Part shown: piece by piece, positions 1 to 63,560 of the stretch
Layout of the letters: each line of letters begins with the position of its first letter
Numbering within the stretch: position 1 is the first letter of the stretch
Translations under genes and position numbers: made by a program
NCBI GenBank assembly: GCA_934255135.1
Contig: CAKQMV010000008.1
Coordinates: 1 to 64,000, forward strand
From: an uncultured Clostridia bacterium
Lineage (GTDB): Bacteria > Bacillota > Clostridia > Peptostreptococcales > Anaerovoracaceae
DNA: 64,000 bases
Reading direction: 5' to 3'
Notes under the pieces: model-generated
What the model was told of the DNA's origin: nothing
Seen by the model: only the letters and a program-made list of their open reading frames with translations
The model's database searches: none

Positions 1-504
1 CGAATTTCCAAGCTGTAGCCCGCACACCGCGGGCTGTATTAACGAATTCTCAAGCTGTAGCCCGCACACCGCGGGCTTTATCATCGAGTTTCTAAGCTGT
101 AGCCCGTACACCGCGGGCTTAATCATCGAATTTCTAAGCTGTAGCCCGCACACCGCGGGCTTAATCATCGAATTTCCAAGCTGTAGCCCGCACACCGCGG
201 GCTGTATTAACGAATTCTCAAGCTGTAGCCCGCACACCGCGGGCTGTATTAACGAATTCTCAAGCTGTAGCCCGCACACCGCGGGCTTAATCATCGAATT
301 TCCAAGCTGTAGCCCGCACACCGCGGGCTTTATCAACGAATTATCAAGTTGTAGCCCGCACACCGCGGGCTGTATTAACGAATTCTCAAGCTGTAGCCCG
401 CACACCGCGGGCTTTATCAACGAATTATCAAGTTGTAGCCCGCACATCGCGGGCTTTATCATCGAATTCTCAAGTTATAGGCCGACATCGTCGGGTTAAA
501 TTGC
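1..504. repeat. Tandem array of about 12 copies of a 42-bp unit (consensus cgaatttccaagctgtagcccgcacaccgcgggctgtattaa). Each unit contains a GCCCGC-ACACC-GCGGGC hairpin. The array runs to the window edge.
   Basis: Direct reading shows the units are immediately adjacent, in phase (1-42, 43-84 and so on), with 2-3 variant classes at the unit ends (gtattaa, ttatcat, taatcat, ttatcaa). The last unit (463-504) is degenerate. Confidence 0.9.
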
Positions 505-759: not shown

Positions 760-2127
760 CTACGCTGCCACTGCTTCGCTATCTCCACATTTAGGCAGCT
801 TCTTCATCTGCTTAAGCAGCGTTATAATGAAGATCACCGAACTGCTTGCCCATGTGATCGGGTAAGCAAGTGCGAGCAGTACGAATGTATGGCTTATGTG
901 GAGCGCTATTGTTGTGTAAGCCACACGGAGTATGCACCATGTGCTGAGGAATGTCACCATTGAGTACATTGCTTTCTCCATTCCGAGCATTATTCCGCTA
1001 GTTGCGTGTGTGAATGCAAGCAGAAAGTAGAATATTGTTACAGTTCTTGCGTAAGTCACTCCGTATGCGATGGAGTCAGGAGTTTTGGTGAACAGGCTGA
1101 TACATTGAGGAGCCCAGATATAGATTACCGCTCCGATTACCTGAGCAATAATGATACTTGATATAATGCTGTACTTTACGCCCTTTCTTATACGCTGATA
1201 GTTTCCGGCGCCTCGGTTCTGGCTGACCATGGTCGAAAGTGCCATTGAAATTGAGAGGATCGGGATGAATACAAATCCTTCAATCTTGATATGTGCACCC
1301 TGACCAGACATTGCGTATTCGCCAAAAGAATTAATATATGTCTGAATAACTACATTTCCGATGCTGAGAGCAGAATTCTGGATTCCAGACGGAAGACCCT
1401 GAAGTATAATCTGTTTTAGGATTTTGCCATTGAACGGAGAACCCTTGAGATTGATTCTGAAAAGGCCTCCTTTTCGCTGCATTCTTAAGTAGCAAAGAAC
1501 CGCCGCAACGCCCTGCGCAATTACAGTTGCAAAAGCAGCTCCGAACGTTCCCTGATGCAGAACTGCTACGAAGAACAGGTCGAGCACGATATTCAGAACT
1601 GACGAAACCAGAAGGAGTATAAGCGGCATCATGCTGTCTCCGAGCGCTCTCATGATTGCAATCAGAAGGTTGTACATGATGATAGTCGAAATTCCCATGC
1701 AGTAAACACGGAAATATGTGATGGCCTCAGGCTGAACGCTAGTAGGAGTGTCCATCCAGATGATGATTTTAGGTGCAAGCAGGGTGGTGATGATTGTAAC
1801 CACGATACTTGTGATGATTCCTAGAAAGAATGTGTTCTGAATCGCTTTGGAAACTCCTTCCTCATTATTCGCACCATAGAATCTCGAAATTACAACGCCG
1901 GCGCCGTTCGACAGACCCATGAAAAATCCCACGATAAGAAAACACAGGTTTCCGCACGAAGATACTGCCGCAAATGATGCATTATCCGCGAAGTTACCGA
2001 TGATAAGCGAGTCGGCGATGTTGTAAAGCTGCTGAAGGAGCTGGCCAAAAAGTAGGGGCATCAGGAAAGAGATAAACCCGCGGGCCAGTGAGCCTGTTGT
2101 AAGTGTGTTGATGTTGTCTTTCTTCAT
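760..2127 (-). CDS. MATE family multidrug/toxic-compound efflux transporter
   Basis: 455-aa polytopic membrane protein (about 12 TM helices) with a MATE-like N-terminus (LARGFISFLMPLLFGQLLQQLYNIADSLIIG). Confidence 0.8.
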   Translation of the reverse strand: MKKDNINTLTTGSLARGFISFLMPLLFGQLLQQLYNIADSLIIGNFADNASFAAVSSCGNLCFLIVGFFMGLSNGAGVVISRFYGANNEEGVSKAIQNTFFLGIITSIVVTIITTLLAPKIIIWMDTPTSVQPEAITYFRVYCMGISTIIMYNLLIAIMRALGDSMMPLILLLVSSVLNIVLDLFFVAVLHQGTFGAAFATVIAQGVAAVLCYLRMQRKGGLFRINLKGSPFNGKILKQIILQGLPSGIQNSALSIGNVVIQTYINSFGEYAMSGQGAHIKIEGFVFIPILSISMALSTMVSQNRGAGNYQRIRKGVKYSIISSIIIAQVIGAVIYIWAPQCISLFTKTPDSIAYGVTYARTVTIFYFLLAFTHATSGIMLGMEKAMYSMVTFLSTWCILRVAYTTIALHISHTFVLLALAYPITWASSSVIFIITLLKQMKKLPKCGDSEAVAA

Positions 2128-2282: not shown

Positions 2283-2295
2283 TATGTTAACAATT

Positions 2296-2440
2296 AAACA
2301 CAGGGGAGCTTGTGAGGCAGGCTGAGAGGAAGTACTCGAACTTCGACCCGATAACCTGATTTGGATAATGCCAACGTAGGGAGCTGCTTATGACATACAC
2401 GGGGAATTTCCAAGTCGGGAATTTCCCGTTTTTTATTGTG
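2296..2440 (+). ncRNA. TPP (THI-box) riboswitch with an intrinsic-terminator expression platform
   Basis: The sequence carries caggggagc...ggctgagagg...cgacccgataacctgat.tggataatgcc.acgtagggagc, a classic THI element. This is followed by cggggaatttcc-aagtc-gggaatttcccg and a T7 run at 2399-2436. It sits immediately 5' of thiS. Confidence 0.9.
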
Positions 2441-2658: not shown

Positions 2659-3294
2659 ATGATTCCGACGCGTGAAGAATGGACCGCTGCGCTTAATGAG
2701 CGTCACGGCACGGAGCTTCAGAAGAAGTTCGATGCGGCAACCATTACTGTATGCGGACTTGGAGGACTCGGCTCGAATATAGCAATATCCCTTGCGAGAG
2801 CGGGAATCGGCAGACTGATACTGATTGATTTTGACCGCGTGGACATAACAAACCTCCACAGACAGCAGTACAGAGCAGATCAGATCGGGTTATATAAGAC
2901 CGATGCACTTTCAGAAATTCTTAAGGGGATTGCACCATATATCGAGATAGAGACACATACGGTCAGACTTACGGATGAGAACTCGGCGGAGATTCTTAAG
3001 GGCGCTGACATCGTGTGCGAAGCTTTTGACAGTCCGGATGCGAAGGCGATGCTTGTGGATGTCGTGCTCGAGAGGCTTCCTGGGGCGTACATTGTTGCGG
3101 GTTCTGGAATGGCTGGCATGGCGACTCCGAATTCGATCGTCACAAGACGTCTGACAGAGAGATTCTATCTTTCGGGGGATGGCGTGAGTGATGTGAATGA
3201 CGACATCGGACTTGTCGCACCGAGGGTCATGCTGTGCGCGGCGCATCAGGCACATACGGCGTTAAGAATTCTTGCAGGAGAATATAACGTATAG
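2659..3294 (+). CDS. thiF: ThiF, sulfur carrier protein ThiS adenylyltransferase (E1-like)
   Basis: Carries the GLGGLGS nucleotide-binding motif. Start overlaps the thiS stop. Confidence 0.85.
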   Translation: MIPTREEWTAALNERHGTELQKKFDAATITVCGLGGLGSNIAISLARAGIGRLILIDFDRVDITNLHRQQYRADQIGLYKTDALSEILKGIAPYIEIETHTVRLTDENSAEILKGADIVCEAFDSPDAKAMLVDVVLERLPGAYIVAGSGMAGMATPNSIVTRRLTERFYLSGDGVSDVNDDIGLVAPRVMLCAAHQAHTALRILAGEYNV

Positions 3295-3318: not shown

Positions 3319-4089
3319 ATGAATAATGACAAGCTTGTTATAGGTGGACACGAATTTGATTCAAGATTCATTCTAGGTTCGGGTAAGTACTCGATGAAGC
3401 TGATTGAGTCAGCTATTAAGGATGCGGGCGCTGAGATTATTACGCTTGCAGTAAGAAGAGCTAACACTAAGGATGAGGAGAATATTCTCGACTACATTCC
3501 TGAGGGCGTTACACTTCTTCCTAACACATCAGGTGCTAGAAATGCAGACGAGGCAGTAAGAATTGCGCGTCTTGCAAGAGAGCTTGGATGCGGTGATTTT
3601 GTAAAGGTTGAGATTATGAGAGATGCGAAGTATCTTCTCCCTGACAACCAGGAGACTATCAAGGCAACAGAGATTCTCGCTAACGAGGGTTTTGTGGTAA
3701 TGCCTTACATGTATCCGGATCTTAACGCTGCAAGAGATATGGCTAATGCAGGTGCTGCTACAATTATGCCGCTTGCTTCACCAATCGGTTCAAACAAGGG
3801 TCTTGCAACTAAGGCGTTTATCCAGATTCTGATCGATGAGATTGATCTTCCAATCATCGTCGATGCCGGAATCGGCAAGCCTTCACAGGCGTGCGAAGCA
3901 ATGGAGATGGGTGCAGCTGCAATCATGGCTAACACTGCTCTTGCAACTGCAGGCGACCTTCCAATGATGGCTCAGGCATTTCGTCAGGCTATCGAGGCAG
4001 GACGTAAGGCTTATCTTTCAGGACTCGGTCGTGTGCTCACAAGAGGTGCTTCAGCATCAGATCCTCTTACAGGCTTCCTAAGAGACTAG
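3319..4089 (+). CDS. thiG: Thiazole synthase ThiG
   Basis: 256-aa protein with a ThiG-like N-terminus ([19 protein letters not shown]) and a TIM-barrel-like composition. Confidence 0.85.
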
Positions 4090-6883: not shown

Positions 6884-8188
6884 ATGAGAAACTATACGAC
6901 ACAGATGGATGCCGCACGTAAGGGAATTATCACTCCAGAAATGAAGGCTGTTGCCAAGAAGGAGTACAGAACTGAGGAGGAGATCAGAGATCTAGTAGCT
7001 AGAGGTCAGGTTGCAATCTGCGCTAACAGACTGCACACTTGCATCGATCCTAATGGTGTTGGTTCAATGCTCCGCACTAAGATTAACGTAAACCTCGGCG
7101 TATCTCGTGACTGTAAGGACTACGATATTGAGATGCAGAAGGTTATGGCTGCAGTAGATATGGGAGCTGAGGCTATTATGGATCTTTCATCACACGGAAA
7201 CACTCAGCCTTTCCGTCAGAAGCTCACTTCAGAGTGTCCTGCAATGATCGGTACTGTTCCTGTTTACGACAGTGTTATCCACTACCAGAGAGACCTTGCT
7301 ACTCTTACTGCTAAGGATTTCATCGATGTTATTCGTCTTCACGCTGAGGACGGAGTTGACTTCGTAACTCTTCACTGCGGAATCACTCGCAAGACTATTG
7401 AGCAGATTAAGAAGCACAAGAGAAAGATGAACATCGTATCAAGAGGTGGTTCACTCGTATTCGCATGGATGAGCATGACTGGTGAGGAGAACCCATTCTA
7501 TGAGTACTACGATGAGATCCTCGACATCTGCCGTGAGTATGACGTAACTATTTCACTTGGTGATGCTTGCCGTCCAGGATGCCTTGCTGACGGAAGTGAC
7601 GTATGCCAGATCGAGGAGCTTGTAAGACTTGGAGAGCTCACTAAACGTGCCTGGGAGAAGGACGTTCAGGTTATGGTAGAGGGTCCTGGCCACATGCCAA
7701 TGGATCAGATTGAGGCTAACATGAAGATGCAGCAGACTATCTGCATGGGAGCTCCTTTCTACGTACTCGGACCTATCGTAACTGATATCGCTCCTGGCTA
7801 CGACCACATCACTTCAGCAATCGGTGGAGCTATCGCTGCTGCAAGCGGTGCTGCATTCCTCTGCTACGTAACTCCTGCAGAGCACCTTGCTCTTCCAGAT
7901 GTTAATGACGTAAAGCAGGGAATCATCGCTTCAAGAATCGCTGCACACGCTGCTGATATCGCTAAGAAGATTCCTCATGCAAGAGACATCGACGACAAGA
8001 TGGCTGACGCAAGAAGAACATTCGACTGGGATACTCAGTGGGAGTGCTCAATCGACCCAGAGACTGCTAAGTCAATCCGTGACAGCAGAGCACCAGAGCA
8101 CGACGACACTTGTTCAATGTGCGGTAAGTTCTGTGCAGTAAGAAGCATGAACAAGGCACTTAACGACGAGTATATTGATATTCTGTAA
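6884..8188 (+). CDS. thiC: Phosphomethylpyrimidine synthase ThiC
   Basis: 434-aa protein with a C-terminal CSMCGKFCA cluster motif and overall ThiC similarity. Confidence 0.9.
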
Positions 8189-8203: not shown

Positions 8204-8237
8204 AAGGGCCGCTATCTTCGGATAGCGGCCCTTTTGG
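8204..8237 (+). terminator. Rho-independent terminator of the thi operon
   Basis: Hairpin gggccgctatc-ttcg-gatagcggccc followed by ttttggg. Confidence 0.75.
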
Positions 8238-8254
8238 GTACAGGGTTAGAAAGT

Positions 8255-8705
8255 GATGTAATTGCATGGTAGAGGGGTAAACGGTATAACATCCGGTATA
8301 GGGAACTGCATTTTTTGAATTGTCTCTACCAGGTGGTAGAGACAGAGACACTTCTTGAATTATCTCTACCGAATGGTAGAGAGAGCGCTGCTTTTCGTTA
8401 TCTCTATACCTAGTGATTGATCAAATTTCCATCAATGTGGTATAGAGAAATCAAAAATCTATGACCTATATACCGAAACCACCTATGATTGTATACAATT
8501 CATCGATTCTTATCATATTTATACTTTCTAAACATTAAATCACCGTAAAGAATGGTATAGAGATTTCACAAAACTCCAGTCTCTCTACCAAGTGGTAGAG
8601 AGAAAATGAAAAGAGTCCGTCTCTATACCTGCTGGTATAGAGAATCCACAAATATGACAATTCTCTACCACTTCGCATTGTCATATTTCTGCATTGTCAT
8701 ATTTA
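8255..8705. repeat. Array of 10-4-10 palindromes (TCTCTACC-N4-GGTAGAGA and the TCTCTATACC/GGTATAGAGA variant) at about 39-bp phasing, plus half-sites
   Basis: Perfect palindromes lie at 8321-8344, 8363-8384, 8580-8603 and 8619-8643. A long version spans 8401-8448 (arms separated by 28 nt). Half-sites lie at 8264, 8551 and 8661. A gcattgtcatattt x2 direct repeat lies at 8675-8703. The region contains no ORF longer than 63 aa. Confidence 0.8.
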
Positions 8706-8776
8706 AGTTCCCTAGAATAAATTGAAGAATCATAAAGAGAGGAGCAGCCTGGCTGCTCCTTCATCAAACATATTAA

Positions 8777-11700
8777 TTATTCCGATCTCAACGCTTCCAC
8801 AGGATCTTTCTTAGCTGCCATCTTTGATGGGATAAGTCCTGCTATGAATGTCAGCAGCACACTTATCGCTATAAGTATGATTCCAGCGATAACTGGGAGC
8901 TTGGCCTTAAGTGCGGCTATTCCGGTAACCTTCAGGAATACTACATTTATAGGTATGAGAAGGAGCAGGGTGATAATAACTCCCATCAATCCTGCACCAA
9001 GCCCAACCACGATGGTCTCTGAGTTAAATACTCTTGAGATATCTTTCTTTGAAGCTCCGATTGCTCTGAGGATTCCAATTTCTTTGGTTCTTTCGAGAAC
9101 TGAGATATATGTGATGATTCCAATCATAATCGAAGATACGATAAGCGAAATCGCTACAAAGGCTATAAGTACATAGCTTACAGCATTTGTAATTGTCTTT
9201 ACAGACTTGATCATAACACCTGTCACATCGGTGTAGCTTATGACACTTTCTTCCTTATCCTGCTTCTTCATGCTGTCATTGTACTTCTCAATGAAGTCAA
9301 GGAACTCTTCTTTGGCCTGGAAGTCCTTCAGGTAGAAGGAAATCGAAGATGGCCTGTCATAATCAGCATAGCCGAGCTTATTAAGGTTAGTATCAAGCGT
9401 TGTCAGAGTGTTTCCTGATGAAAGCGTCTGCACAAGCTGAGTGATATCATCGTCTGACATGTTGAACTTAAAGGCTGATGCTATAGCATTCTGATCAACA
9501 TTGAAGGCTGAAGCCATAGTTTTGGTAACCTCGCCTGTGAGCTTGCCGACATCTGTCAGAATAGTAGCTTTCATTACAACCTCAGTCAGAGTCTGAGCCA
9601 TCTTATCGATGCCAGCTTTGACATCATCATTTCCAAGGTATCCAGCTTCAGCGCTCTTAAGCATATCGCAGGTTACAGTGCCGCCTGTCTGTGATGCAAG
9701 CTGCTTAAGCACAGCACTGTAGCCCGAAACAACGGGATTTAGCATCTGTGAGCACGCATTTGGAGCCACAAGACCGCTGGTCAGCTTGGAGATCCTCTGG
9801 CATGCGGAAGAATACGAGTCAGAAGAGAGCACCTTTGCAGTCGCTTTGTCTATATCATTATCTGTTAGAGTAAAGCTCTCGGAACCGTCTCCAGATGAGG
9901 CAAGTTCAGATGTAATCTGTCCGCAGAGATCTTCAAGGGCACCTGATATTTCCTTCTTGTACGATGTCGTGTCTGCCGTGATGCTTCCTTCAATCTTTGA
10001 AGAATACTTCTTCAGAATGTTACGCATGTCCTGCTCGGAAACCTTGCCGCCAAAAGCACTCGCGAGTTTATTCTCATCTATCGAAATCAAGCTGTCAAAA
10101 CCGAGTGACTCCTGGTTCTCATCCTCCTGCAGAGACTTGAAGGTCTTGCCACTGAAGACGTCGACGTTCTTATTCGCAAGCTGCTTCTTTACAATATCAG
10201 ATTTTGCAGAGCTGTCGATTACGTGGTCAACAAGTGATGGAAGGTAGCCGATTCCCGGATTTACCATGCCGCCAGCGTTATCCTTGTTAGGGTAGGCGAT
10301 GCAGGTAATCTTCATCCTCTCGCCATTTCTTACAAGCTTCTTCATGTATGACTTGTCGTTTTGCTTGCTCTTGAACACGTCGTAGCTGCTGTCATATTCA
10401 TAATAGTCGCACGCATTGACGAGAGAGAACTCAAGCTCGGCAAGATCCTCATACGTCCATTCGAGCGGCTTTCCTGCCTTGAAATCGATGCTTTTGCCCG
10501 ACATGAGATCGGTCATGACCTTAGACATCTCTTCAGGGTCGCGGAGTCCGAGGCTGTAAGCCATATAGTCGTTCATCGAATTCTTGCTGTCGAGCACAAG
10601 AACCATCTCGTTATACTTCTCAGGCCATTTTCCGTAAGCGACAGTGTACTTATCCTTCTCCTGATCCGCATTGTCAGAAAGCTTAAAGAATATGTCACTC
10701 GAGCCACCCATCATCGATCCCATTGAAGAATTCATAAGGAAAGACGGGTTAACCTGAAGCGCGCCGTACTTAGTGCTCGCTGAATAAATCTGCGGAACAA
10801 TGCCGTAGTTATACACTACATCATTAAAATACGAATCTATCTTTTTATTGTTCTTCTCAACATACTTCTTAAATGATGCGAGGTCGTTACTTCCGATATT
10901 CGCAAACATCTGCGCCATCATCTGGTTCTCCTTGACCTTGCCCTTTGAAGCAGACTCATCATCATCCTTGCTCGCTGCAAAAGATGTGAGAAGAGATGAC
11001 ATATCAGCCGTATCCTTCTGTATCACGAAAGGGTACGATGAAAGCGTATCGTTCTCAATCTTATCTATGTAGTTCTGAAATCCCGTGGAAACCGAGAGAA
11101 TCAGGGCGATTCCGATAATTCCGATGCTGCCGGCAAAAGCAGTCAGGATCGTACGCGCCTTCTTCGTCATCAGGTTGTTAAAGGAGAGTCCAAGCGCAGT
11201 GCCAAAACCCATGGATTTATTCTTAAGTCCCGCCTTCCCGTGAATAAGGAATGATTTATCGCCTGTATATGGATTGCTATCTCCAGTAACAAGCCCGTCC
11301 TTAAGCTTGATGATTCTGCTTGAGTAACGCTCTGCAAGCTCAGGATTGTGAGTTACCATAATAACCAGCCTGTCAGATGCGATGGACTTAAGGATATCCA
11401 TTATCTGAACACTCGTCTCGGTGTCAAGGGCTCCGGTTGGTTCATCTGCTAGAAGTATGTCAGGATCGTTAATAAGAGCTCTTGCAATTGCAACTCTCTG
11501 CATCTGACCGCCTGACATCTGAGAAGGTCTCTTGTGAAGCTGATCACCGAGGCCTACCTCTGTAAGCACCTTGATTGCGCGCTCTCGTCTCTCCTCAGCT
11601 GAAACTCCGGAAAGGGTGAGGGCAAGCTCAACATTCGACAGGACGCTCTGATGAGGAATCAGGTTGTAGCTCTGGAAGACAAAGCCTATGGAATTGTTCC

Positions 11701-11941
11701 TGTAGGCATCCCAGTCCGCATCCTTGTAATCCCTGGTGCTCACTCCGTTGATGATAAGGTCACCGCTCGTATAATGATCAAGACCACCCATTATGTTAAG
11801 AAGGGTGGTCTTGCCACATCCAGAGGATCCGAGAATTGAAACAAACTCATGCTCTCTGAAAGCAATGTCCACACCCTTAAGGGCGTGGACACTCTCTCCT
11901 CCGGTCTCATATGTCTTTGTAATGTTTCTTAGTTCTAACAT
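8777..11941 (-). CDS. Fused ABC transporter ATP-binding/permease protein of the MacB/FtsX type, with a very large extracytoplasmic domain
   Basis: N-terminal Walker A (GSSGCGKTT), signature (LSGGQMQRVAIARAL) and Walker B (LLADEPTGALD). This is followed by a TM helix, a roughly 550-aa Ser/Asp/Lys-rich extracellular region, and a C-terminal FtsX-like 3-TM bundle. Confidence 0.8.
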   Translation of the reverse strand: MLELRNITKTYETGGESVHALKGVDIAFREHEFVSILGSSGCGKTTLLNIMGGLDHYTSGDLIINGVSTRDYKDADWDAYRNNSIGFVFQSYNLIPHQSVLSNVELALTLSGVSAEERRERAIKVLTEVGLGDQLHKRPSQMSGGQMQRVAIARALINDPDILLADEPTGALDTETSVQIMDILKSIASDRLVIMVTHNPELAERYSSRIIKLKDGLVTGDSNPYTGDKSFLIHGKAGLKNKSMGFGTALGLSFNNLMTKKARTILTAFAGSIGIIGIALILSVSTGFQNYIDKIENDTLSSYPFVIQKDTADMSSLLTSFAASKDDDESASKGKVKENQMMAQMFANIGSNDLASFKKYVEKNNKKIDSYFNDVVYNYGIVPQIYSASTKYGALQVNPSFLMNSSMGSMMGGSSDIFFKLSDNADQEKDKYTVAYGKWPEKYNEMVLVLDSKNSMNDYMAYSLGLRDPEEMSKVMTDLMSGKSIDFKAGKPLEWTYEDLAELEFSLVNACDYYEYDSSYDVFKSKQNDKSYMKKLVRNGERMKITCIAYPNKDNAGGMVNPGIGYLPSLVDHVIDSSAKSDIVKKQLANKNVDVFSGKTFKSLQEDENQESLGFDSLISIDENKLASAFGGKVSEQDMRNILKKYSSKIEGSITADTTSYKKEISGALEDLCGQITSELASSGDGSESFTLTDNDIDKATAKVLSSDSYSSACQRISKLTSGLVAPNACSQMLNPVVSGYSAVLKQLASQTGGTVTCDMLKSAEAGYLGNDDVKAGIDKMAQTLTEVVMKATILTDVGKLTGEVTKTMASAFNVDQNAIASAFKFNMSDDDITQLVQTLSSGNTLTTLDTNLNKLGYADYDRPSSISFYLKDFQAKEEFLDFIEKYNDSMKKQDKEESVISYTDVTGVMIKSVKTITNAVSYVLIAFVAISLIVSSIMIGIITYISVLERTKEIGILRAIGASKKDISRVFNSETIVVGLGAGLMGVIITLLLLIPINVVFLKVTGIAALKAKLPVIAGIILIAISVLLTFIAGLIPSKMAAKKDPVEALRSE

Positions 11942-23622: not shown

Positions 23623-24360
23623 ATGATGTCGCTACTTAAAATTGAGAATGTAACAAAGAAATACGGCGACTTAACCGTTATAGAAGATATCAACATTCAT
23701 CTTGAGAAGGGAGAGCTTGTCTCTCTTCTCGGAGTGAGTGGCGCGGGCAAAACAACTCTTTTCCACGTCATCTCGGGACTTTCCGCTCCGGACGGCGGCA
23801 GGGTTTTGCTCGAGGATGAGGACATAACTGCAAAGCCAGGGCGAATCGCCTACATGCTTCAGAAGGATCTTCTTATGCAGCACAAGAAGGTGATTGATAA
23901 CGTATCACTTCCGCTTGTATTAAAGGGAATGAGCAAGGCTGATGCAAGAGAGAAGGCTGCTTTGTTCTTCGAAGAATTCGGCCTTTCGGGCTACGAGTAC
24001 AGCTATCCATCAGACCTCTCTGGAGGAATGAGGCAGAGAGCTGCACTCCTTAGAACGTATCTCGCATCGGAGGGAACTGCGCTTCTCGACGAGCCTTTCA
24101 GCGCACTAGATACGATCACGAAGTCAAACATTCACAAGTGGTATCTTGATGTAATGCAGCACATCGACCTGTCGACCTTGTTTATCACGCACGATATTGA
24201 TGAGGCGATACTTCTGTCTGACAGAATCTATATTCTAAGCGGCAGACCTGGCAGAATTACAGACGAGATTGTAATCGACGAGCCGAAGCCAAGAGCAGAT
24301 GACTTCAACCTTACAGAGAAGTTTCTTGAATACAAGAAGCTGATTATTTCAAAATTGTAA
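23623..24360 (+). CDS. ABC transporter ATP-binding protein (ThiZ-like)
   Basis: Walker A (GVSGAGKTT), signature (LSGGMRQRAAL) and Walker B (LLDEPFSALD). Confidence 0.8.
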   Translation: MMSLLKIENVTKKYGDLTVIEDINIHLEKGELVSLLGVSGAGKTTLFHVISGLSAPDGGRVLLEDEDITAKPGRIAYMLQKDLLMQHKKVIDNVSLPLVLKGMSKADAREKAALFFEEFGLSGYEYSYPSDLSGGMRQRAALLRTYLASEGTALLDEPFSALDTITKSNIHKWYLDVMQHIDLSTLFITHDIDEAILLSDRIYILSGRPGRITDEIVIDEPKPRADDFNLTEKFLEYKKLIISKL

Positions 24361-24362
24361 TA

Positions 24363-24402
24363 AAGAAGCCTGGCAATCTGCCAGGCTTCAACTTTATCTA
24401 AA
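24363..24402. terminator. Bidirectional intrinsic terminator between convergent thiZ-like and mscS genes
   Basis: Hairpin agcctggcaatctgccaggct flanked by A-rich and T-rich sequence. Confidence 0.7.
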
Positions 24403-24404
24403 TC

Positions 24405-25178
24405 CTAAATCCTCTCATACTTCACAAGCTCTATTCCTGCTTCGCTTAGCTCTCTTGCTATCACTGCGTTGCAGGCTCTCTTGATTATAGGCTTATTCTT
24501 CATATCACCCCATACTCTGATTGCGTGCAGCGTTCCGTCATTTACAAAATCCTTAATTCCCACGTATGAAGATCTGTCCACGCTTGCAACTTTATTCTCA
24601 AGCTTCTCAGGAAGTGCCTTAAACACCTCAGTAACCCTGTCCGCATCGTTATTCTGTGATACAGAAACCGGAATGTCGAAGCAAGGGAAGCCTTCCTCGA
24701 TAGTAGTGATGTCACGGTTACAGATGTAGACAGTTCCCATAAGGTCAAAATCATAGAGCTTCGTTGTTCTAAGTGTGAACGATTCGACAATTCCCGTGTG
24801 TCCGTTGATGGTTACTATCGAGCTTATATCCATTGACTCATCGAAGATGATGTGAAGTCCCATCAGGTAATCCTTAAGCGTATCCTGCAGCGCAAGACCG
24901 ATAACAGCACTGACAAGACCGAGTCCTGCTACGAAGGATTTTACGTTGAAACCAAGGATGGCAAGAATCCACATGGCAAAAATAAAGACAATCAGCACCT
25001 TCGCGCAGCTTCCGAGTACACGGATTATTGTGCCGAATCGGGTGTTTCCGGACTTCATGTGGTGCTTGAATATTCTCTTGGTTATAAGACTTGAGATGCC
25101 CAGTGCTACAAACATCAGGGCTATTACAAGTAGAATTCTGATTAAATGGTCGAGTGAAAACTCAGTAGAAAAGTTCAT
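24405..25178 (-). CDS. mscS: Small-conductance mechanosensitive channel (MscS family)
   Basis: Three TM helices, then the MscS beta-domain pattern (GLALQDTLKDYLMGLHIIFDE…). The start at MNFSTEF (25178) is preceded by an AAGGGAGG RBS; the six-frame ORF extends to 25205. Confidence 0.75.
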   Translation of the reverse strand: MNFSTEFSLDHLIRILLVIALMFVALGISSLITKRIFKHHMKSGNTRFGTIIRVLGSCAKVLIVFIFAMWILAILGFNVKSFVAGLGLVSAVIGLALQDTLKDYLMGLHIIFDESMDISSIVTINGHTGIVESFTLRTTKLYDFDLMGTVYICNRDITTIEEGFPCFDIPVSVSQNNDADRVTEVFKALPEKLENKVASVDRSSYVGIKDFVNDGTLHAIRVWGDMKNKPIIKRACNAVIARELSEAGIELVKYERI

Positions 25179-51821: not shown

Positions 51822-52916
51822 ATGGCATTTGAACTTAGAAAGTATACTCATCCGGACTTCACACAGGACAAATTTGTAAACGCCCCAGACTGTGTGCTCG
51901 TTCCTGCACCTAAGGATGGAGTTGCACCTGACAACTTCCATGCTAACAGTATTTTCCCTGAATATTTTAAGGTTAACGGAGAGTGGCTCCTTCTTGAGGA
52001 GAGCAGAATGGACACAGTTCCAATGTTCGACGGAGAGAAGATGCAGTCATATGAACCAAGAAGACTTAAGAAGGGTGACCTCGTAGTAGTTGGAAGAACT
52101 GAAGACTGCGAAGAGGGAATCTACATGCATGCTAATGGATTCAATGAGGAGAGAGGCTCAGGAGATACATTCGCATTCAGAACAGGAAGATCAAGAGAGA
52201 CCGCATTCGGTAAGGATATCGACGAGATCGTAGAGCTTCTCAAGCACGAGAAGGAGAACGGAAACGTAGTATGGGTACTCGGACCTGCATTCTCATTTGA
52301 CATCAGAGCAAGAAGAGCTCTTTCAGCAATCATCTCAAACGGATATGCTGATGCAGTACTTGCTGGTAACGCTCTCGCTACACATGATCTTGAGGGAGCA
52401 TACATGAACACAGCTCTTGGACAGAACATCTACACTCAGGAGAACGTTCACAACGGACACTACAACCACCTCGAGCTTATCAACAAGGTAAGAGAAGCAG
52501 GATCAATTCCAGAGTTCATCGAGCAGAACAATCTTGATGACGGAATCATCTGTGCAGCAGTAAAGAATGATGTTCCAATTGTACTTGGAGGATCAATCAG
52601 AGACGACGGTCCACTTCCAGAGGTATTTGGAAACTGCTACGATGCACAGGATGCAATGAGAGGCTGCGTAAAGAAAGCAACAACAGTAATCACACTTGCA
52701 ACAATGCTTCACTCAATCGCAGTAGGAAACATGACACCATCATTCAGAGTAATGGAGGATGGAACTGTAAGACAGGTTTACTTCTACATCTGCGACATCT
52801 CAGAGTTCGTAGTAAACAAGCTTGCAGACAGAGGATCACTCTCAGCTAAGGGAATCATCACTAACGTTCAGGACTTCATCTGCAGCGTAGCAAATGGACT
52901 GGGACTTGAGTACTAA
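51822..52916 (+). CDS. Conserved hypothetical protein (possibly a LOR/SDH-like or TIGR00300-like family). Function unknown.
   Basis: 364-aa soluble ORF with good codon usage. The family guess is from memory and not verifiable here. Confidence 0.3.
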   Translation: MAFELRKYTHPDFTQDKFVNAPDCVLVPAPKDGVAPDNFHANSIFPEYFKVNGEWLLLEESRMDTVPMFDGEKMQSYEPRRLKKGDLVVVGRTEDCEEGIYMHANGFNEERGSGDTFAFRTGRSRETAFGKDIDEIVELLKHEKENGNVVWVLGPAFSFDIRARRALSAIISNGYADAVLAGNALATHDLEGAYMNTALGQNIYTQENVHNGHYNHLELINKVREAGSIPEFIEQNNLDDGIICAAVKNDVPIVLGGSIRDDGPLPEVFGNCYDAQDAMRGCVKKATTVITLATMLHSIAVGNMTPSFRVMEDGTVRQVYFYICDISEFVVNKLADRGSLSAKGIITNVQDFICSVANGLGLEY

Positions 52917-53099
52917 TTTCTATTAGTATAGCGATTCATATAACGATAGACTTTAATAGCATAAGGGCTCTTGCGATAGACCGTAGGGGCTCTTTTTATG
53001 TATAATTTATGTACTTTCAAGCTATACAATTTTGTTCACCAAATGTATAATTTACATTTGGTATATTTGTAAATAATCTTATTGTAAGGACGAACATAT

Positions 53100-53900
53100 A
53101 TGAAGAAACTTGGAGTTTTGATGGCGTGCGTTATAGCCATCTCTATGCTATGTGGATGCAGCGGAAATAATGAGGGCATGGCAGCGGATCTGCCTGAAAT
53201 AACAGTAGGAAGCGATACGTATCCGCCTTTTGTTTTTGAGGATGCTGATGGCAATCCTACAGGTATTGATGTGGAGCTTGCCAGAGAGGCCTTCAAGCGG
53301 ATGGGGTATAAGTCTGTATTTAAGACAATTAACTGGGAGAATAAGACAAAGCTTGTAGATTCAGGAGCGATTGACTGCATCTGGGGAAGCTTCTCTATTG
53401 ATGGAAGAGAAGATCTATACAATTGGACGAAGCCCTACATGTACAGCAGAGAGGTTGTGGCTGTGAAGGCGGACAGTGGTATTACGAGCTTGTCTGACCT
53501 TGAAGGAAAACGCATCGCTGTTCAGTCGACTACAAGACCCGAAGAGGTGCTTCTTTCTGGCAGTAATCCTGATATCCCCGAATTGATGGAGGTCATTTCA
53601 CTTCAGAAGAGAGAGGTTATGTATCCATATCTCAGTAAGGGTTATGTTGATGCAATTGCAGCTCATGAAATCTCAATTCTTACATGCATGAAGGATTATA
53701 GAATTGACTATAGAATCATAGACGAGCCACTTCAGAGCGTTGGCCTGGGTGTGGCTTTCTCAAAGAAGGACAAACGAAATCTTCAGCATAAGCTTTCTAA
53801 GAGTTTTGAAGAAATGAGAAATGATGGAACTATGAAGAAGATAATCGGAAAGTATCTCGAGGATCCTGAGAAATATATGGAGGCTGGAGATAATGAGTAA
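53100..53900 (+). CDS. Family-3 (amino-acid type) substrate-binding lipoprotein
   Basis: Lipobox (MLCGCSG). PBPb-like sequence. Overlaps the start of the hybrid histidine kinase. Confidence 0.7.
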   Translation: MKKLGVLMACVIAISMLCGCSGNNEGMAADLPEITVGSDTYPPFVFEDADGNPTGIDVELAREAFKRMGYKSVFKTINWENKTKLVDSGAIDCIWGSFSIDGREDLYNWTKPYMYSREVVAVKADSGITSLSDLEGKRIAVQSTTRPEEVLLSGSNPDIPELMEVISLQKREVMYPYLSKGYVDAIAAHEISILTCMKDYRIDYRIIDEPLQSVGLGVAFSKKDKRNLQHKLSKSFEEMRNDGTMKKIIGKYLEDPEKYMEAGDNE

Positions 53901-60514: not shown

Positions 60515-60802
60515 ATGGAAGAGAAGAGAACTCCAATGAGAAGATGCATCTCATGTATGCAGTCCTTTCCGAAGGAGGAGCTTCTAAGGTTCACTGTAAG
60601 GGATGGAGTGATTATCCCTGACGGTGAACGTGAGAACGACGGAAGAGGGTTCTATATCTGCAGGAAACAGGCATGTCTTGATAAAACAATCAGGAAGAAA
60701 GTCTTCAATCGTGTTCTGAGAATGCAGCTTGATCAGAATATGGTTGAGGAGGTAATTGGCAATATAGCTGATACGGAGGTAATTGATGGGAAAGAAAATT
60801 AG
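60515..60802 (+). CDS. ylxR: YlxR/RnpM family (DUF448) RNA-binding protein
   Basis: [19 protein letters not shown]…GRGFYIC motif. Conserved position between nusA and infB. Confidence 0.75.
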
Positions 60803-63560
60803 TGAAATAACCAAAGAGCTTTCCATCGAGTTTACTGAGCTTAAGAGCTATGCAGACAAGCTCGGTATTGAGATGAAGAGCGCTCGCGGCAGCCTTGATG
60901 AGGCTTCTGCCGAGAGACTTATACAGACAGTTAATATGATGCACGGAACAAAGTCGTCAAAAGGTGGTGCACACAAGACTGCTCCTAAGGCAGTACCTGT
61001 TAAGAAGAAGGATGCACCTAAGATGGCACCTGCAGCAAAGCCTGCACCTAAGGCAGAGAAGACAGAGGCTCCAGCTGAAGAAGCTAAGGTAGAGGCTCCT
61101 AAGGCAGAGAAGACAAAGGCTCCAGCTGAAGAGACAAAGAAGGAAGCTCCTAAGGCAGAGGCTAAGGAGGCTCCTAAGGCTGAAGCTAAAGCAGTTCCGG
61201 AGAAGAAGGAAGAGGAAGAGTACGTAAATGCTCCAAATAAGCCTATGAGATTCAAGAAGATCGTAGATGCAAATCAGGTCAAGGAAGAAGAGAAGGCTAA
61301 GCATTCAAGAGAGCACAAGCGTGACAACAACAGAGATAACAGAAACGGAAACAGAAACGAGCAGGGCAGCAGAAACGGAAACAGAGACAACAAGAATGAG
61401 CGCGGTACAAGAAACAGAAACGATCGTGACAACAATAGAGGTGACCGTGACAACAGAGGCGGTAACAGAGGTGACCGTGACAACAGAAACGGCGGAAGAG
61501 ACAACCGAGACAACAAGGATTCCGACAGCAGAAACTCAAGACCTCAGAGAAGAAACCAGGGCGGCGGCGCTTCAGCAGCTCCTGCTGAGTCAAAGCCATC
61601 ATCAAGAGGCAAGAGCAAGAAGTTCTTTGATAACAAGGATAAGGACAAGCAGTCACGTCACGACAGAAGAGAGGACGGAAACGGAAGAGGATACAAGAAC
61701 AACTCTTACCTCGATGATACTTCACTTGAGAAGCAGTCACGTCGTAAGAAGAAGAAGGTTGTTAAGGAAGAGCCTGAAATCGAGATCGAGGAGCTTCTTC
61801 CAGAAGGCGCAATTCCAGTATCAGTTCCAATCACTGTAGCTGGACTTGCTGAGCAGGCAGAGATTTCTGTAACAAACATCATCATGGCACTTATGAAGAT
61901 GGGTGTTATGGCAACAATCAACCAGACTCTCGATAAGGATGCCATTGAGATGCTCTCACTTGAGCTCGGAATGGAGTTCGTTGTAACAGAAGAGGAAGAG
62001 GTTGAGGAAGAAGAAGGACTCGAGCTCTACGAGGATACTGAGTCAGATCTTAAGCCAAGACCACCAATCATCACAGTTATGGGTCACGTTGACCACGGTA
62101 AGACATCACTCCTCGATGCTATCCGTAACACTAACGTAACTGCAGGTGAGTCAGGTGGAATCACTCAGCATATCGGAGCTTCAGAGGTAGTTATCGACGG
62201 AAAGAGAATCGTATTCCTCGATACTCCTGGACACGAGGCTTTCACAACAATGAGAGCAAGAGGTGCTCAGATTACAGATATCGCTGTACTCGTAGTTGCT
62301 GCTGACGACTCAGTTAAGCCACAGACCATCGAGTCAATCTCACACGCTAAGGCTGCAGGTGTACCTATTATCGTTGCAATCAACAAGATGGATAAGCCTG
62401 GTGCCAACCCAGACAGAGTAAAGAAGGACCTCGCAGAGAACGGCGTTCTCGTAGAGGACTGGGGTGGAGACGTTATCAGCGTTCCTGTATCAGCTAAGAA
62501 GGGTGAGGGTATCAGAGACCTTCTCGAGATGATCCTGCTTCAGGCAGAGGTACTTGAGCTTAAGGCTAACCCAGACAGACTTGCACTTGGTACAGTTATC
62601 GAGGCAAGACTTGATAAGGCTAAGGGACCTATCGCTACACTTCTTGTTACTAATGGTACTCTTAAGTCAGGACAGAGCGTTGTTGCAGGTACATGCAGCG
62701 GACGTATCAGAGTAATGACTAACTTCAGAGGCGAGACTATCAGAAAGGCTGGCCCTGCAACTGCAGTTGAGATTCTCGGACTTTCAGATGTTCCAATGGC
62801 AGGTGATTCATTCAACGCTGTTAAGGACGACAAGGTTGCAAGAGAAATTGCCAACCAGAGAAAGGAGAAGCTCAGAGAGGACGTACTTGCTAAGAACGCA
62901 AGCACAACTCTCGACAAGCTCTTCAGCCAGATCCAGGAGGGTGAGGCTAAGGAGCTTAACCTCATCATCAAGGGAGACGTACAGGGTTCAGTTGGTGCTA
63001 TCATTTCATCACTTGAGAAGCTTGATACTCCTGAGGTTAAGATCAGAGTTATCCACTCAGGTGTTGGTACAATCAACGAGTCAGATGTAACTCTCGCTGA
63101 GACATCAAACGCTATCATTATCGGATTTAACGTAAGACCTACAACAGCTGTAACTAACCAGGCTCAGAACGCAGACGTTGAGCTCAGACTTTATAGAGTA
63201 ATCTACGATATCATCGATGATATCCAGGATGCTATGAAGGGAATGCTCGACCCTGAGTACAAGGAAGAGGTTCTTGGTAAGGCTGAGGTTAGAGATACAT
63301 TCAAGGTTCCTAATGTCGGCGTAATCGCTGGTGCTTACGTAATCGAGGGTAAGGTTCAGCGAAGCAAGCAGATCAGACTTGTAAGAGATGGAATCGTAAT
63401 CCACGAGGGAACTATTTCATCACTTAAGAGATACAAGGATGACGTTAAGGAAGTTGTATCAGGATTCGAGTGCGGACTCGGAATCGAGAAGTACAACGAC
63501 ATTAAGCCAGGCGATGTAATCGAGTGCTTCCACATGGTTGAAATCGAAAGAAGCCTGTAA
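60786..63560 (+). CDS. infB: Translation initiation factor IF-2 with a long K/A/E/P-rich then R/D/N-rich low-complexity insert
   Basis: N-terminal IF2_N domain, GTPase G-domain ([24 protein letters not shown]), and C-terminal beta-barrels. ATG at 60786 with a GGAGGT RBS. Confidence 0.9.

What the first reader, a model, noticed from the sequence alone, without database searches (positions are those of the whole stretch)
8255..8705. ORF-free convergent spacer packed with about 39-bp-phased 10-4-10 palindromes (TCTCTACC N4 GGTAGAGA family)
Five full palindromes and three half-sites of one motif family are regularly spaced. Unique spacers of about 16-17 bp separate them, and a long variant has arms 28 nt apart. 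The region lies between the thiC terminator and the 3' end of the ABC gene. It could be any of:
- an array of operators for a dimeric repressor (iteron-like titration site)
- a small structured RNA made of repeated 10-bp-stem/4-nt-loop hairpins
- a decayed MITE cluster

The 590-bp gene-free gap is unusual in this 90%-coding window.
Basis: seen in the sequence. Interest (0 to 1): 0.55.

Follow-up and report, generated by a model that had tools for sequence, protein, structure and literature searches.

The report
Worn-out mobile repeat element in Blautia
The palindrome-packed spacer is a decayed copy of a roughly 460-bp non-coding mobile element (a MITE) found at several unrelated sites in genomes of this gut Blautia species, so it is selfish DNA parked between two terminators and not a locus-specific regulatory site.

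Summary
Window 8295-8669 holds four short-loop palindromes (TCTCTA[TA]CC-N4-GGTA[TA]GAGA), one 28-nt-loop variant and four half-sites on an exact 40-bp phase. The motif occurs nowhere else in the 64 kb (0 expected by chance).

It is not locus-specific. Window 8247-8693 is 86-89% identical over its whole length, AT-rich core included, to elements at two other sites in closely related Blautia contigs. There the element is 463-478 bp and is bounded by 18-23-bp terminal inverted repeats (5'-GTAAACGGTAAACCATCC). These are flanked by near-perfect 8-bp direct repeats.

The site upstream of pstS is polymorphic between strains:
- the full element;
- a 62-bp internally deleted derivative;
- no element at all.

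GTAA-N-CG tips plus 8-bp duplications are hallmarks of the IS66 family. No transposase partner was found.

The window copy lacks both terminal repeats, so it is an immobile relic lying between the thiC and ABC-gene terminators. Conspecific strains (flanks 97% identical) carry a different repeat at the same place: a 41-42-bp hairpin tandem array that also occupies window 1-474.

The palindrome arms are more conserved between copies than the linkers (7% against 26% variable columns). They probably matter to the element, perhaps as protein-binding sites.

Verdict: an ordinary new member of a known kind (MITE), with an unusual foldback, sub-repeat architecture.

The parts
8204..8233 (+). thiC intrinsic terminator (13-bp perfect stem, 4-nt loop, then TTTT). 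It marks the left limit of the 'safe' space.
   Evidence: (I6)
8247..8693 (.). Relic of the MITE-like element. It is collinear with L134 2294-2771 and L128 376-838 (reverse strand), but lacks both terminal inverted repeats.
   Evidence: 89% identity over 400 bp to L134; 90% over 393 bp to L128
8277..8294 (+). Isolated 18-nt copy of the element's terminal repeat (GTAAACGGTATAACATCC, 2 mismatches). It is inserted inside the relic and flanked by the direct repeat GGTAGAGGG (8268-8276) / GGTATAGGG (8295-8303). It is absent from the other two copies.
8309..8342 (-). Unit U1: tail plus palindrome TCTCTACC-AGGT-GGTAGAGA (8323-8342; 11-2-11 when extended).
8349..8382 (-). Unit U2: tail plus palindrome TCTCTACC-GAAT-GGTAGAGA (8363-8382).
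8401..8460 (.). Long-loop palindrome (arms 8401-8410 and 8439-8448, 28-nt loop containing TTGATCAA) plus its tail AATCAAAAATCT. Unit orientation switches here.
   Evidence: I15/I12, D2, I4
8461..8553 (.). AT-rich core, conserved in all three copies (16% variable columns).
8554..8581 (+). Half-unit: GGTATAGAGA plus tail.
   Evidence: (D2)
8582..8619 (+). Unit U5: palindrome TCTCTACC-AAGT-GGTAGAGA (8582-8601; 11-2-11 when extended) plus tail.
8620..8661 (+). Unit U6: palindrome TCTCTATACC-TGCT-GGTATAGAGA (8620-8643) plus tail.
8662..8693 (+). Terminal half-site TCTCTACC plus the right subterminal segment ACTTCGCATTGTCATATTTCTGCA. Homology to the full elements stops exactly where their right terminal repeat begins.
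8675..8704 (+). Local 16-bp tandem duplication (GCATTGTCATATTT twice) that takes the place of the missing right terminal repeat.
   Evidence: D4
8740..8760 (-). Terminator of the ABC/FtsX gene (8777-11941, minus strand). It marks the right limit.
   Evidence: (I17)

Best explanation
Window 8247-8693 is a decayed, now immobile copy of a roughly 460-bp non-coding, non-autonomous transposable element (a MITE) that is dispersed in this Blautia species.

Intact copies have this layout: a 23-bp terminal inverted repeat, a short subterminal segment, three 40-bp units (palindrome plus A-rich tail) in one orientation, an AT-rich core of about 100 bp, three units in the opposite orientation, a subterminal segment, and the second terminal repeat. 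The whole element is therefore a long foldback made of tandem sub-repeats.

The following steps are inferred. The element is moved in trans by a transposase that recognises the 5'-GTAAACG... ends and makes 8-bp target duplications, most likely one of the IS66 family. It survives where insertion is harmless, such as the untranscribed gap between two convergent terminators.

The phased palindromes are parts of the element, not host regulatory sites. Their arms are conserved better than the linkers, so they probably serve the element, most plausibly as binding sites for a dimeric element-associated protein or as hairpin-forming modules.

The window copy has lost both terminal repeats and has no demonstrable role for thiC or the ABC gene.
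For: Shown directly:

1. Dispersal. A metagenome scan for two phased palindromes returned full-length homologues in two other contexts, L128 and L129 (= L134). They align collinearly with the window copy, core included (86-90% identity).

2. Same species group. L128 1-150 is 95% identical to window 52769-52918. Members of the protein clusters of two L129 genes (PstS and a 624-aa protein) lie on a contig of 177,202 bp, the same length as the thiC contig of L122.

3. Terminal repeats. L128 has perfect 18-bp terminal inverted repeats at 376-393 and 821-838. L134 has them at 2294 and 2771.

4. Target duplications. 8-bp direct repeats abut the tips: CCCCTTGT/CTCCTTGT (7 of 8) at the pstS site and ATTACACT/GTTGCACT (6 of 8) in L128. 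The chance probabilities are about 4e-4 and 4e-3.

5. Presence/absence polymorphism at the pstS site among contigs with an identical PstS:
- full element (L134, L141);
- 62-bp derivative in which the left terminal repeat is joined to the right end (L136, L137, L139, L140);
- no element (L133, L138).

6. Polymorphism at the thiC site. Strains with an identical ThiC and 97%-identical flanks lack the element.

7. No coding capacity. There is no conserved or called ORF.

8. Arm conservation. Arms vary at 8 of 116 columns, against 34 of 129 in linkers (Fisher p = 7e-5).

9. Family hallmarks. IS66-family elements have inverted repeats that start GTAAGCG or GTAACCG and make 8-bp direct repeats (PMC11946415; PMC12888890).

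10. Other MITE-like elements and an rve-type transposase fragment occupy the same kinds of spacer in sister strains.
Against: - No autonomous partner or transposase carrying these ends was found.
- Only three insertion sites, one solo end (L120) and one internal solo terminal repeat were seen, so copy number per genome is unknown.
- No exactly matching empty site is available. Strains that lack the element at pstS also lack about 200 bp of surrounding spacer.
- The target duplications are imperfect, and at L134 the left one is partly deleted.
- The window copy lacks both terminal repeats almost exactly, which is odd for random decay.
- Resemblance to IS66 ends is limited to the first 7 bases.
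- The better conservation of the arms could also result from gene conversion among the 13 arm copies.
Confidence: 0.75

Rival explanations
1. REP/BIME-like host repeat. The palindromes are this genome's repetitive extragenic palindromes, amplified by a RAYT-type enzyme or by slippage. They would act as mRNA 3'-end stabilisers or transcription insulators in convergent spacers.
For: The location is intergenic and 3'-proximal, between convergent genes. Content varies between strains. A second hairpin-repeat family with a 41-42-bp period fills other convergent spacers. The mosaic, alternating-orientation layout recalls BIMEs.
Against: The TCTCTACC palindrome never occurs alone. There are 0 further copies in the 64-kb window and none outside the composite element in about 150 kb of related loci. 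The unit that is copied is the whole 460-bp composite with its unique core and terminal inverted repeats. The array lies outside both transcription units, beyond each terminator. The hairpins are followed by A-runs, not U-runs.
Confidence: 0.1
2. Operator, iteron or titration array. A host dimeric DNA-binding protein binds the phased 20-bp palindromes cooperatively, and the site has been co-opted for regulation or protein titration.
For: The geometry is a 20-bp two-fold symmetric site typical of HTH dimers. The 40-bp phase places sites on nearly the same helix face. The arms are conserved and the central 4 nt differ between units. The same palindrome is a probable TetR operator in Acidimicrobiia.
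Against: No promoter needs regulating here: the array lies between two terminators, and promoter-like sites are not enriched (4 found against 2.7 expected). The element is absent from conspecific strains that have intact thiC and ABC genes. There is no second occurrence upstream of any gene in the window. The sites move as cargo of a mobile element.
Confidence: 0.07
3. A small structured RNA gene made of repeated hairpins (a protein-sponge or ToxI-like antitoxin RNA), transcribed outward from the AT-rich core.
For: The predicted fold is very stable (RNA z = -7.7). Weak promoter-like hexamers lie in the core on both strands.
Against: The stability follows trivially from the DNA palindromes. No Rfam family reaches threshold: the best is whalefall-1 at 22.7 bits against a gathering score of 37. 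There is no terminator after either arm and no adjacent toxin or partner ORF. No compensatory changes were seen among copies. The 62-bp derivative shows that the hairpin part is dispensable to the TIR-bounded unit.
Confidence: 0.05
4. Relic of a plasmid or phage replication origin or partition site (lambda-ori-like palindromic iterons plus an AT-rich region, or a sopC-like centromere).
For: The architecture is palindromic repeats flanking an AT-rich core. The period (40 bp) is close to that of sopC (43 bp; from my own knowledge).
Against: There is no rep, par or phage gene nearby. There is no similarity to any of 72,556 plasmids or 50,697 phages. No arrays occur in viral contigs.
Confidence: 0.03

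Closest known systems
Bacterial MITEs derived from IS elements, specifically IS66-family-type ends (IS66: inverted repeats starting GTAAGCG, 8-bp direct repeats; PMC11946415, PMC12888890). A generic bacterial example is MITEAba12 (PMC6382973).
   Same: It has terminal inverted repeats of about 20 bp that start GTAA-N-CG, and 8-bp flanking direct repeats. It is under 500 bp with no coding capacity. It is intergenic, shows presence/absence polymorphism between strains, and has internally deleted derivatives.
   Different: No IS66 transposase with these ends was found. Only the first 7 bases resemble published IS66 repeats. The interior is built of phased palindromic sub-repeats in two inverted blocks, which is not a described IS66 feature.
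Pneumococcal BOX elements (boxA-boxB(n)-boxC) (from my own knowledge)
   Same: It is a modular, non-coding, intergenic mobile-like repeat in a Firmicute with a tandemly repeated internal module of about 45 bp. It has strong hairpin potential, and its composition varies between copies.
   Different: There is no sequence relationship. BOX sub-repeats are direct, not in two inverted blocks. The ends and target duplication also differ.
Tandem-repeat-containing and foldback MITEs of eukaryotes (DTC84 of Donax trunculus, PMC3879986; Drosophila Foldback elements, from my own knowledge)
   Same: Terminal inverted repeats enclose arrays of short tandem repeats. In Foldback elements the long inverted arms themselves consist of sub-repeats around a central loop.
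   Different: Those hosts are eukaryotes and the transposase families are unrelated. This is an architectural analogy only.
E. coli REP/BIME arrays (from my own knowledge)
   Same: Palindromic units in alternating orientation are joined by short linkers. They sit at the 3' ends of genes and their copy number varies between strains.
   Different: REPs occur hundreds of times as single or paired units and lack terminal inverted repeats and a unique core. Here the palindrome exists only inside the composite element.

Membership tests
MITE (non-autonomous TIR transposon) | Terminal inverted repeats at both ends | tested here: met
   L128 has a perfect 18-bp pair at 376-393 and 821-838, extending to 22 of 23 bp. 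L134 has both ends. The window copy itself lacks both ends, so it is a relic.
MITE (non-autonomous TIR transposon) | Target-site duplication flanking the ends | tested here: met
   The 8-bp direct repeats match at 7 of 8 positions (L136, L137, L140) and 6 of 8 (L128). They are imperfect, and the one in L134 is partly deleted.
MITE (non-autonomous TIR transposon) | Small size without coding capacity | tested here: met
   The element is 463-478 bp. Only short ORFs lie over the palindromes. No gene was called, and a protein search returned no homologue.
MITE (non-autonomous TIR transposon) | Several copies at non-orthologous sites, with insertion polymorphism | tested here: met
   There are three sites (thiC/ABC, the pstS upstream region, and the ArgZ-like/NTP-transferase spacer), plus a solo end in L120. 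Strains with and without the element exist at two of the sites. Copy number per genome is unknown.
MITE (non-autonomous TIR transposon) | A cognate autonomous element with the same ends | not testable with these tools
Viral, plasmid and phage collections hold no match.
IS66-family derivative | Inverted repeats starting 5'-GTAAGCG (or a close variant) | tested here: met
   The tips read GTAAACG, GTAAATG or GTAACCG. Published IS66 repeats read GTAAGCG and GTAACCG. Similarity does not extend beyond base 7.
IS66-family derivative | 8-bp direct repeats | tested here: met
   
IS66-family derivative | An IS66 (DDE_Tnp_IS66) transposase that mobilises it | not tested
   No IS66 gene occurs in the window or in the fetched loci. 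No seed sequence was available for a targeted search.
REP/BIME | The palindromic unit is dispersed on its own at many intergenic sites | tested here: not met
   There are 0 palindromes outside 8255-8705 in the 64-kb window, and none outside the composite element in the related loci. The whole genome was not available.
CRISPR array | Direct repeats of at least 23 nt separated by unique spacers of at least 26 nt, with cas genes | tested here: not met
   The linkers are 16-20 nt and related to each other. The units occur in both orientations. The neighbouring genes are thi, ABC, Na/Pi-cotransporter and Tex genes.
Type III toxin-antitoxin (ToxI-like repeat RNA) | Tandem direct repeats followed by a terminator and a toxin ORF | tested here: not met
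   No ORF follows the repeats, and the units are inverted about the centre.
Described RNA families (Rfam 15) | Match at the gathering threshold | tested here: not met
   The only hit in the window is the TPP riboswitch at 2292-2399. The best sub-threshold hit in the spacer is whalefall-1 at 22.7 bits against a threshold of 37.
Iteron origin / sopC-like partition site | Adjacent rep or par gene, or plasmid/phage context | tested here: not met
   The context is chromosomal. There is no plasmid or phage similarity.

The most novel reading that the evidence does not exclude
The 40-bp-phased palindromes could be a mobile operator array. They would be multi-site subterminal binding sites for a still unidentified dimeric protein, either an accessory protein of an IS66-like transposon or a host HTH factor, which assembles a higher-order complex on each arm of the element. 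That would be a previously undescribed end architecture for this transposon family. It would also be a vehicle that spreads ready-made arrays of protein-binding sites through Blautia genomes.
Probability: 0.12. Interest if true: 0.5.

Novelty: new member of a known kind. Interest (0 to 1): 0.25.

Why it matters
The main value is correct annotation. A striking, statistically impossible-by-chance palindrome array invites interpretation as an operator cluster, an sRNA or a CRISPR-like locus. It is in fact the carcass of a small mobile element.

The result also shows that, in this abundant human-gut Blautia species, the short untranscribed gaps between convergent terminators are hypervariable dumps for several repeat families. 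These include this MITE, at least two other MITE-like elements, and 41-42-bp hairpin minisatellites.

This has three practical consequences:
- These spacers can serve for strain typing.
- They explain contig breaks and runs of N in MAGs.
- Spurious 160-200-aa 'genes' are called across such arrays.

The sub-repeat architecture, with palindrome arms under apparent constraint, gives a concrete handle for finding what binds the element if its transposase is identified.

Tried and rejected
**Searches that led nowhere**
It was filled by an unrelated Acidimicrobiia/Actinomycetota palindrome and by terminators, so it never reached the source genome.
- blastn of the window copy and of the intact L134 copy against plasmids and phages gave nothing above chance.
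- Viral-contig scans found nothing relevant. The terminal repeat and the core gave 0 hits. The single palindromes gave 1 and 22 isolated hits that look like terminators or chance matches, with no arrays. The type 2 array pattern gave 2 chance hits in GC-rich phage contigs.
- I tried fishing for further copies through spurious ORF products. The 69-aa ORF across the right arm had no homologue. The 162-aa 'protein' read across a type 2 array gave only 2 hits, though one of them revealed a third array site.
- Rfam at a permissive threshold returned nothing credible.
- Tandem Repeats Finder does not report the 8255-8705 array, because the units are too diverged and inverted.

**Ideas rejected**
- CRISPR, ToxI-type antitoxin, lambda-type origin, sopC-like centromere, res site and terminator stack.
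- The terminator stack fails because each hairpin is followed by an A-run on the outward strand, not a U-run.

**Left unresolved**
- Type 1 and type 2 units share only a period of about 40 bp and a loose AATTC..AAG linker motif. I could not show that they are homologous.

Full report
**The observation**

The spacer between thiC (6884-8188, plus strand) and the fused ABC/FtsX gene (8777-11941, minus strand) holds the following features:
- exact TCTCTACC-N4-GGTAGAGA at 8323, 8363 and 8582;
- the TA-expanded form TCTCTATACC-TGCT-GGTATAGAGA at 8620;
- a long variant whose arms (8401-8410 and 8439-8448) are 28 nt apart;
- half-sites at 8554 and 8662 (exact) and at 8268 and 8295 (degenerate).

None of 100 shuffles of the window gave a single match to the 20-mer with up to 2 mismatches, against 4 found. 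All eight GGTAKAGAGA decamers in the 64 kb lie here.

The phase is exactly 40 bp. The linkers are not unique. Each palindrome carries an A-rich tail, with unit consensus TCTCTACCAnnTGGTAGAGA-GAATTCAAAAA. The units left of about 8440 are the reverse complement of those on the right, so the region is a 99-nt-armed imperfect inverted repeat around an AT-rich centre (I1, I4, D2).

The array lies between the thiC terminator (8204-8233) and the ABC-gene terminator (8740-8760), outside both transcription units.

**Organism and population context**

The ThiC protein belongs to a cluster named 'uncultured Blautia sp.'. It is encoded identically on 23 human-gut metagenome contigs that were read.

Three of the displayed contigs (L121, L123, L125) have a spacer identical to the window. 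Four others (L120, L122, L124, L126) have flanks 97-98% identical, with homology stopping within a few bases of the two stop codons. They carry a completely different spacer there. It is a direct tandem array of 6-13 units of 41-42 bp, each unit being the hairpin TAGCCCGC-ACNNN-GCGGGCTA plus a linker.

In L120 and L122 a further element of 0.4-0.8 kb follows the array. In L120 that element has its own 26-bp inverted ends.

The palindrome array of the finding is therefore dispensable to thiC and the ABC gene, and the site is hypervariable within the species.

**The same 42-bp hairpin family in the window**

The other family sits in the window too. Positions 1-474 are 11.3 copies of a 42-bp unit at 90% identity. 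They lie in another convergent spacer, with strain-dependent copy number, assembly gaps, and in one strain an rve-type transposase fragment abutting the array.

A third site holds this family in a relative (L150), at a place where the window has only a 45-bp bidirectional terminator (24360-24405).

**The key result: the element is dispersed**

One metagenome scan for two phased palindromes (TCTCTACC-N4-GGTAGAGA, 14-24 nt, TCTCTA) returned three stretches. One is a chance hit. Two are full-length homologues of the window element in other genomic contexts: L128, and L129 (which is part of L134).

The three copies align collinearly from window 8247 to 8693, including the loops, the 28-nt loop and the AT-rich core. 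Identity is 86-90%.

The hosts are close relatives of the window organism. L128 1-150 is 95% identical to window 52769-52918. The proteins of the L129 locus cluster with proteins from a contig of 177,202 bp, the same length as the thiC contig of L122.

**Ends of the intact copies**

In L128 the element (376-838, 463 bp) is bounded by perfect 18-bp terminal inverted repeats, GTAAACGGTAAACCATCC, which match at 22 of 23 bp when extended. In L134 the element (2294-2771, 478 bp) has both ends as well.

Directly outside the tips are 8-bp direct repeats. They read ATTACACT/GTTGCACT in L128 and CCCCTTGT/CTCCTTGT at the pstS site. The chance probabilities are about 4e-3 and 4e-4.

**Polymorphism at the pstS site**

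Contigs encoding an identical PstS show four states of the upstream spacer:
- the full element (L134, L141);
- at the very same position, a 62-bp derivative in which the left terminal repeat is joined to the last roughly 40 bp of the right end (L136, L137, L139, L140);
- no element (L133, L138);
- a different MITE-like element (L135, L142).

A solo right end lies in L120 at 3467-3484. At the L128 site, other strains keep only the left terminal repeat, followed by an unrelated 500-bp AT-rich interior that has its own palindromes.

**What it is**

The following features define a miniature inverted-repeat transposable element (MITE):
- terminal inverted repeats;
- flanking duplications;
- small size;
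- no coding capacity;
- paralogous copies;
- insertion polymorphism;
- deletion derivatives.

Ends starting GTAA-N-CG together with 8-bp duplications are the published hallmarks of the IS66 family: 'terminal IR starting with GTAAGCG ... 8-bp DRs' (PMC11946415), with examples GTAAGCGTCC... and GTAACCGTCC... (PMC12888890). I therefore propose mobilisation in trans by an IS66-like transposase. That step is inferred. No transposase was found, and the similarity to published ends stops at base 7.

**State of the window copy**

The window copy is a relic. Its homology to the intact copies starts exactly after where the left terminal repeat should be (8247). It ends exactly where the right one should begin (8693). 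A local 16-bp tandem duplication follows (8675-8704).

An isolated 18-nt copy of the terminal repeat (8277-8294) sits inside the relic. It is flanked by the direct repeat GGTAGAGGG/GGTATAGGG and is absent from the other copies. It looks like the footprint of a second insertion event.

**What the palindromes do**

Among the three copies the variable-column counts are as follows:

| Region | Variable columns | Percent |
|---|---|---|
| Palindrome arms | 8 of 116 | 7% |
| Linkers | 34 of 129 | 26% |
| Core | 17 of 105 | 16% |

The difference between arms and linkers is significant (Fisher p = 7e-5).

In the window, the TA insertion that distinguishes the two arm types is always present on both arms of a palindrome or on neither. 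This points to constraint on two-fold symmetry, either for a dimeric protein or for a hairpin. Gene conversion among the 13 arm copies could also contribute.

There are no compensatory substitutions, so pairing and sequence-specific binding cannot be told apart. The very low folding energies (z = -7.7 for RNA and -10.3 for DNA) follow trivially from the palindromes.

The hairpins are followed by A-runs on the outward strand, so they are not terminators. Promoter-like sites are not enriched. No Rfam family matches.

The 62-bp derivative shows that the array is not needed for the TIR-bounded unit to persist at a site.

My best reading, at moderate confidence, is that the arrays are subterminal multi-site binding regions or structural foldback arms that serve the element, not the host.

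**Rivals**

- REP/BIME-like repeats are the nearest rival. However, the palindrome never occurs outside the composite element in any sequence I could read.
- A host operator or titration array is unlikely. The site lies between two terminators, is absent from conspecific strains, and is carried by a mobile element.
- An sRNA and a plasmid or phage origin relic lack any positive evidence.

**Comparison with known elements, and novelty**

The element is a new member of a known kind: a bacterial MITE, probably related to IS66.

Its foldback design, with arms built of 40-bp palindrome-plus-tail sub-repeats, resembles pneumococcal BOX elements and eukaryotic tandem-repeat-containing or Foldback MITEs (PMC3879986) in architecture only.

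A large survey of prokaryotic MITEs mentions Blautia only once, among genera newly assigned as hosts to viral sequences (PMC11602168). I could not check whether this family is listed there.

**Limits**

Copy number per genome is therefore unknown.
- The autonomous partner is unidentified.
- The target duplications are imperfect, and no exact empty site was available.

Noticed in passing
window 1-474 (continues left of the window; compare L123 3075-3600): This is a tandem array of at least 11.3 copies of a 42-bp unit: hairpin GTAGCCCGC-ACACC-GCGGGCT plus linker TTATCAACGAATTCTCAAGCT, 90% identical. It lies in the convergent spacer between a PAP2-like gene and the MurJ/MATE gene (760-2127, minus strand). 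Copy number differs by strain (8 to at least 12) and causes runs of N in MAG assemblies. L120 and L126 lack it.
   Followed up: partly
L120 11405-11790, L122 11405-11640, L124 11405-11800, L126 8170-8700 (the thiC-ABC spacer of sister strains): The same 41-42-bp hairpin-repeat family (6-13 units, variable 5-nt loops, ending in a unit with a loop of about 30 nt) occupies the spacer that holds the finding in the window. Gene callers translated these arrays into spurious 162-196-aa 'proteins'.
   Followed up: partly
L150 3930-4240 versus window 24360-24405: A relative has a 7-8-unit array of the same hairpin family between the two terminators of the ABC_tran/MscS convergent pair. The window has only a single 45-bp bidirectional terminator there, so this family is also gained or lost site by site.
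   Followed up: partly
L120 11805-12570; L122 11640-12100; L126 400-500; L135 2343-2895; L142 1-205; L124 about 3740: A second MITE-like family has inverted ends GGTTCATCA(C/A)GTTTTCCTCGGGGATTTAG and an internal palindrome CAATTCTTCCCGGATATCGGGAAGAATA present twice. It is inserted in the same kinds of spacer in several strains.
   Followed up: no
L136 about 1490-1830 (also L137, L139, L140): A third insertion of about 350 bp lies in the pstS upstream spacer. It is bracketed by CGTCTGCCGA repeats and is absent from L134.
   Followed up: no
L143-L149, e.g. L143 3496-4016: At the L128 insertion site, other strains keep the same left terminal repeat (GTAAATGGTAAACCATCCGTACG). An unrelated 500-bp AT-rich interior follows, with its own palindromes (AATATCGAAATTTCGATATT twice, and AATATCGCAG repeats) and no right terminal repeat. 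It could be a recombinant or a second cargo type.
   Followed up: partly
L125 1-144: The C-terminal end of a DDE (rve-type) transposase abuts the 42-bp array. Pfam rve_3 and rve_2 match with E = 6e-4 and 2e-3, below the family cut-offs. An IS has apparently landed in the array in that strain.
   Followed up: partly
L123 about 3060-3080 and L120 3456-3484: The sequence CATTATCATATTTCAGCAC at the left border of the 42-bp array resembles the right subterminal segment of the MITE (CATTGTCATATTTCTGCAC). In L120 the same position carries that segment plus the terminal repeat. This suggests the repeat families recombine at module borders.
   Followed up: no
L002, L007, L016, L026, L035, L042, L095, L106 and others (genome-contig hits): In Acidimicrobiia and other Actinomycetota, the palindrome TCTCTACCA-NN-TGGTAGAGA lies in the divergent spacer between a TetR-like regulator of about 198 aa and an NAD-binding acyl-CoA-reductase-like gene of about 800 aa. 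It is a probable conserved TetR operator, unrelated to the Blautia element.
   Followed up: partly
window 2292-2399: A TPP riboswitch (Rfam RF00059, 63.2 bits) lies upstream of the thiS-thiF-thiG-thiH-thiE-thiD-thiC operon. This is as expected.
   Followed up: yes
window about 52916-53100: Synteny breaks here relative to L128 and L143. In those strains the ArgZ-like gene (window 51822-52916) converges on an NTP-transferase/gltX-like pair that is absent from the window. Several metagenome contigs also end near this point.
   Followed up: no
window 61047-61189: In-frame 24-bp and 51-bp tandem repeats lie inside the 925-aa ORF 60783-63560, probably a repetitive Lys/Glu/Ala-rich protein segment.
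   Followed up: no
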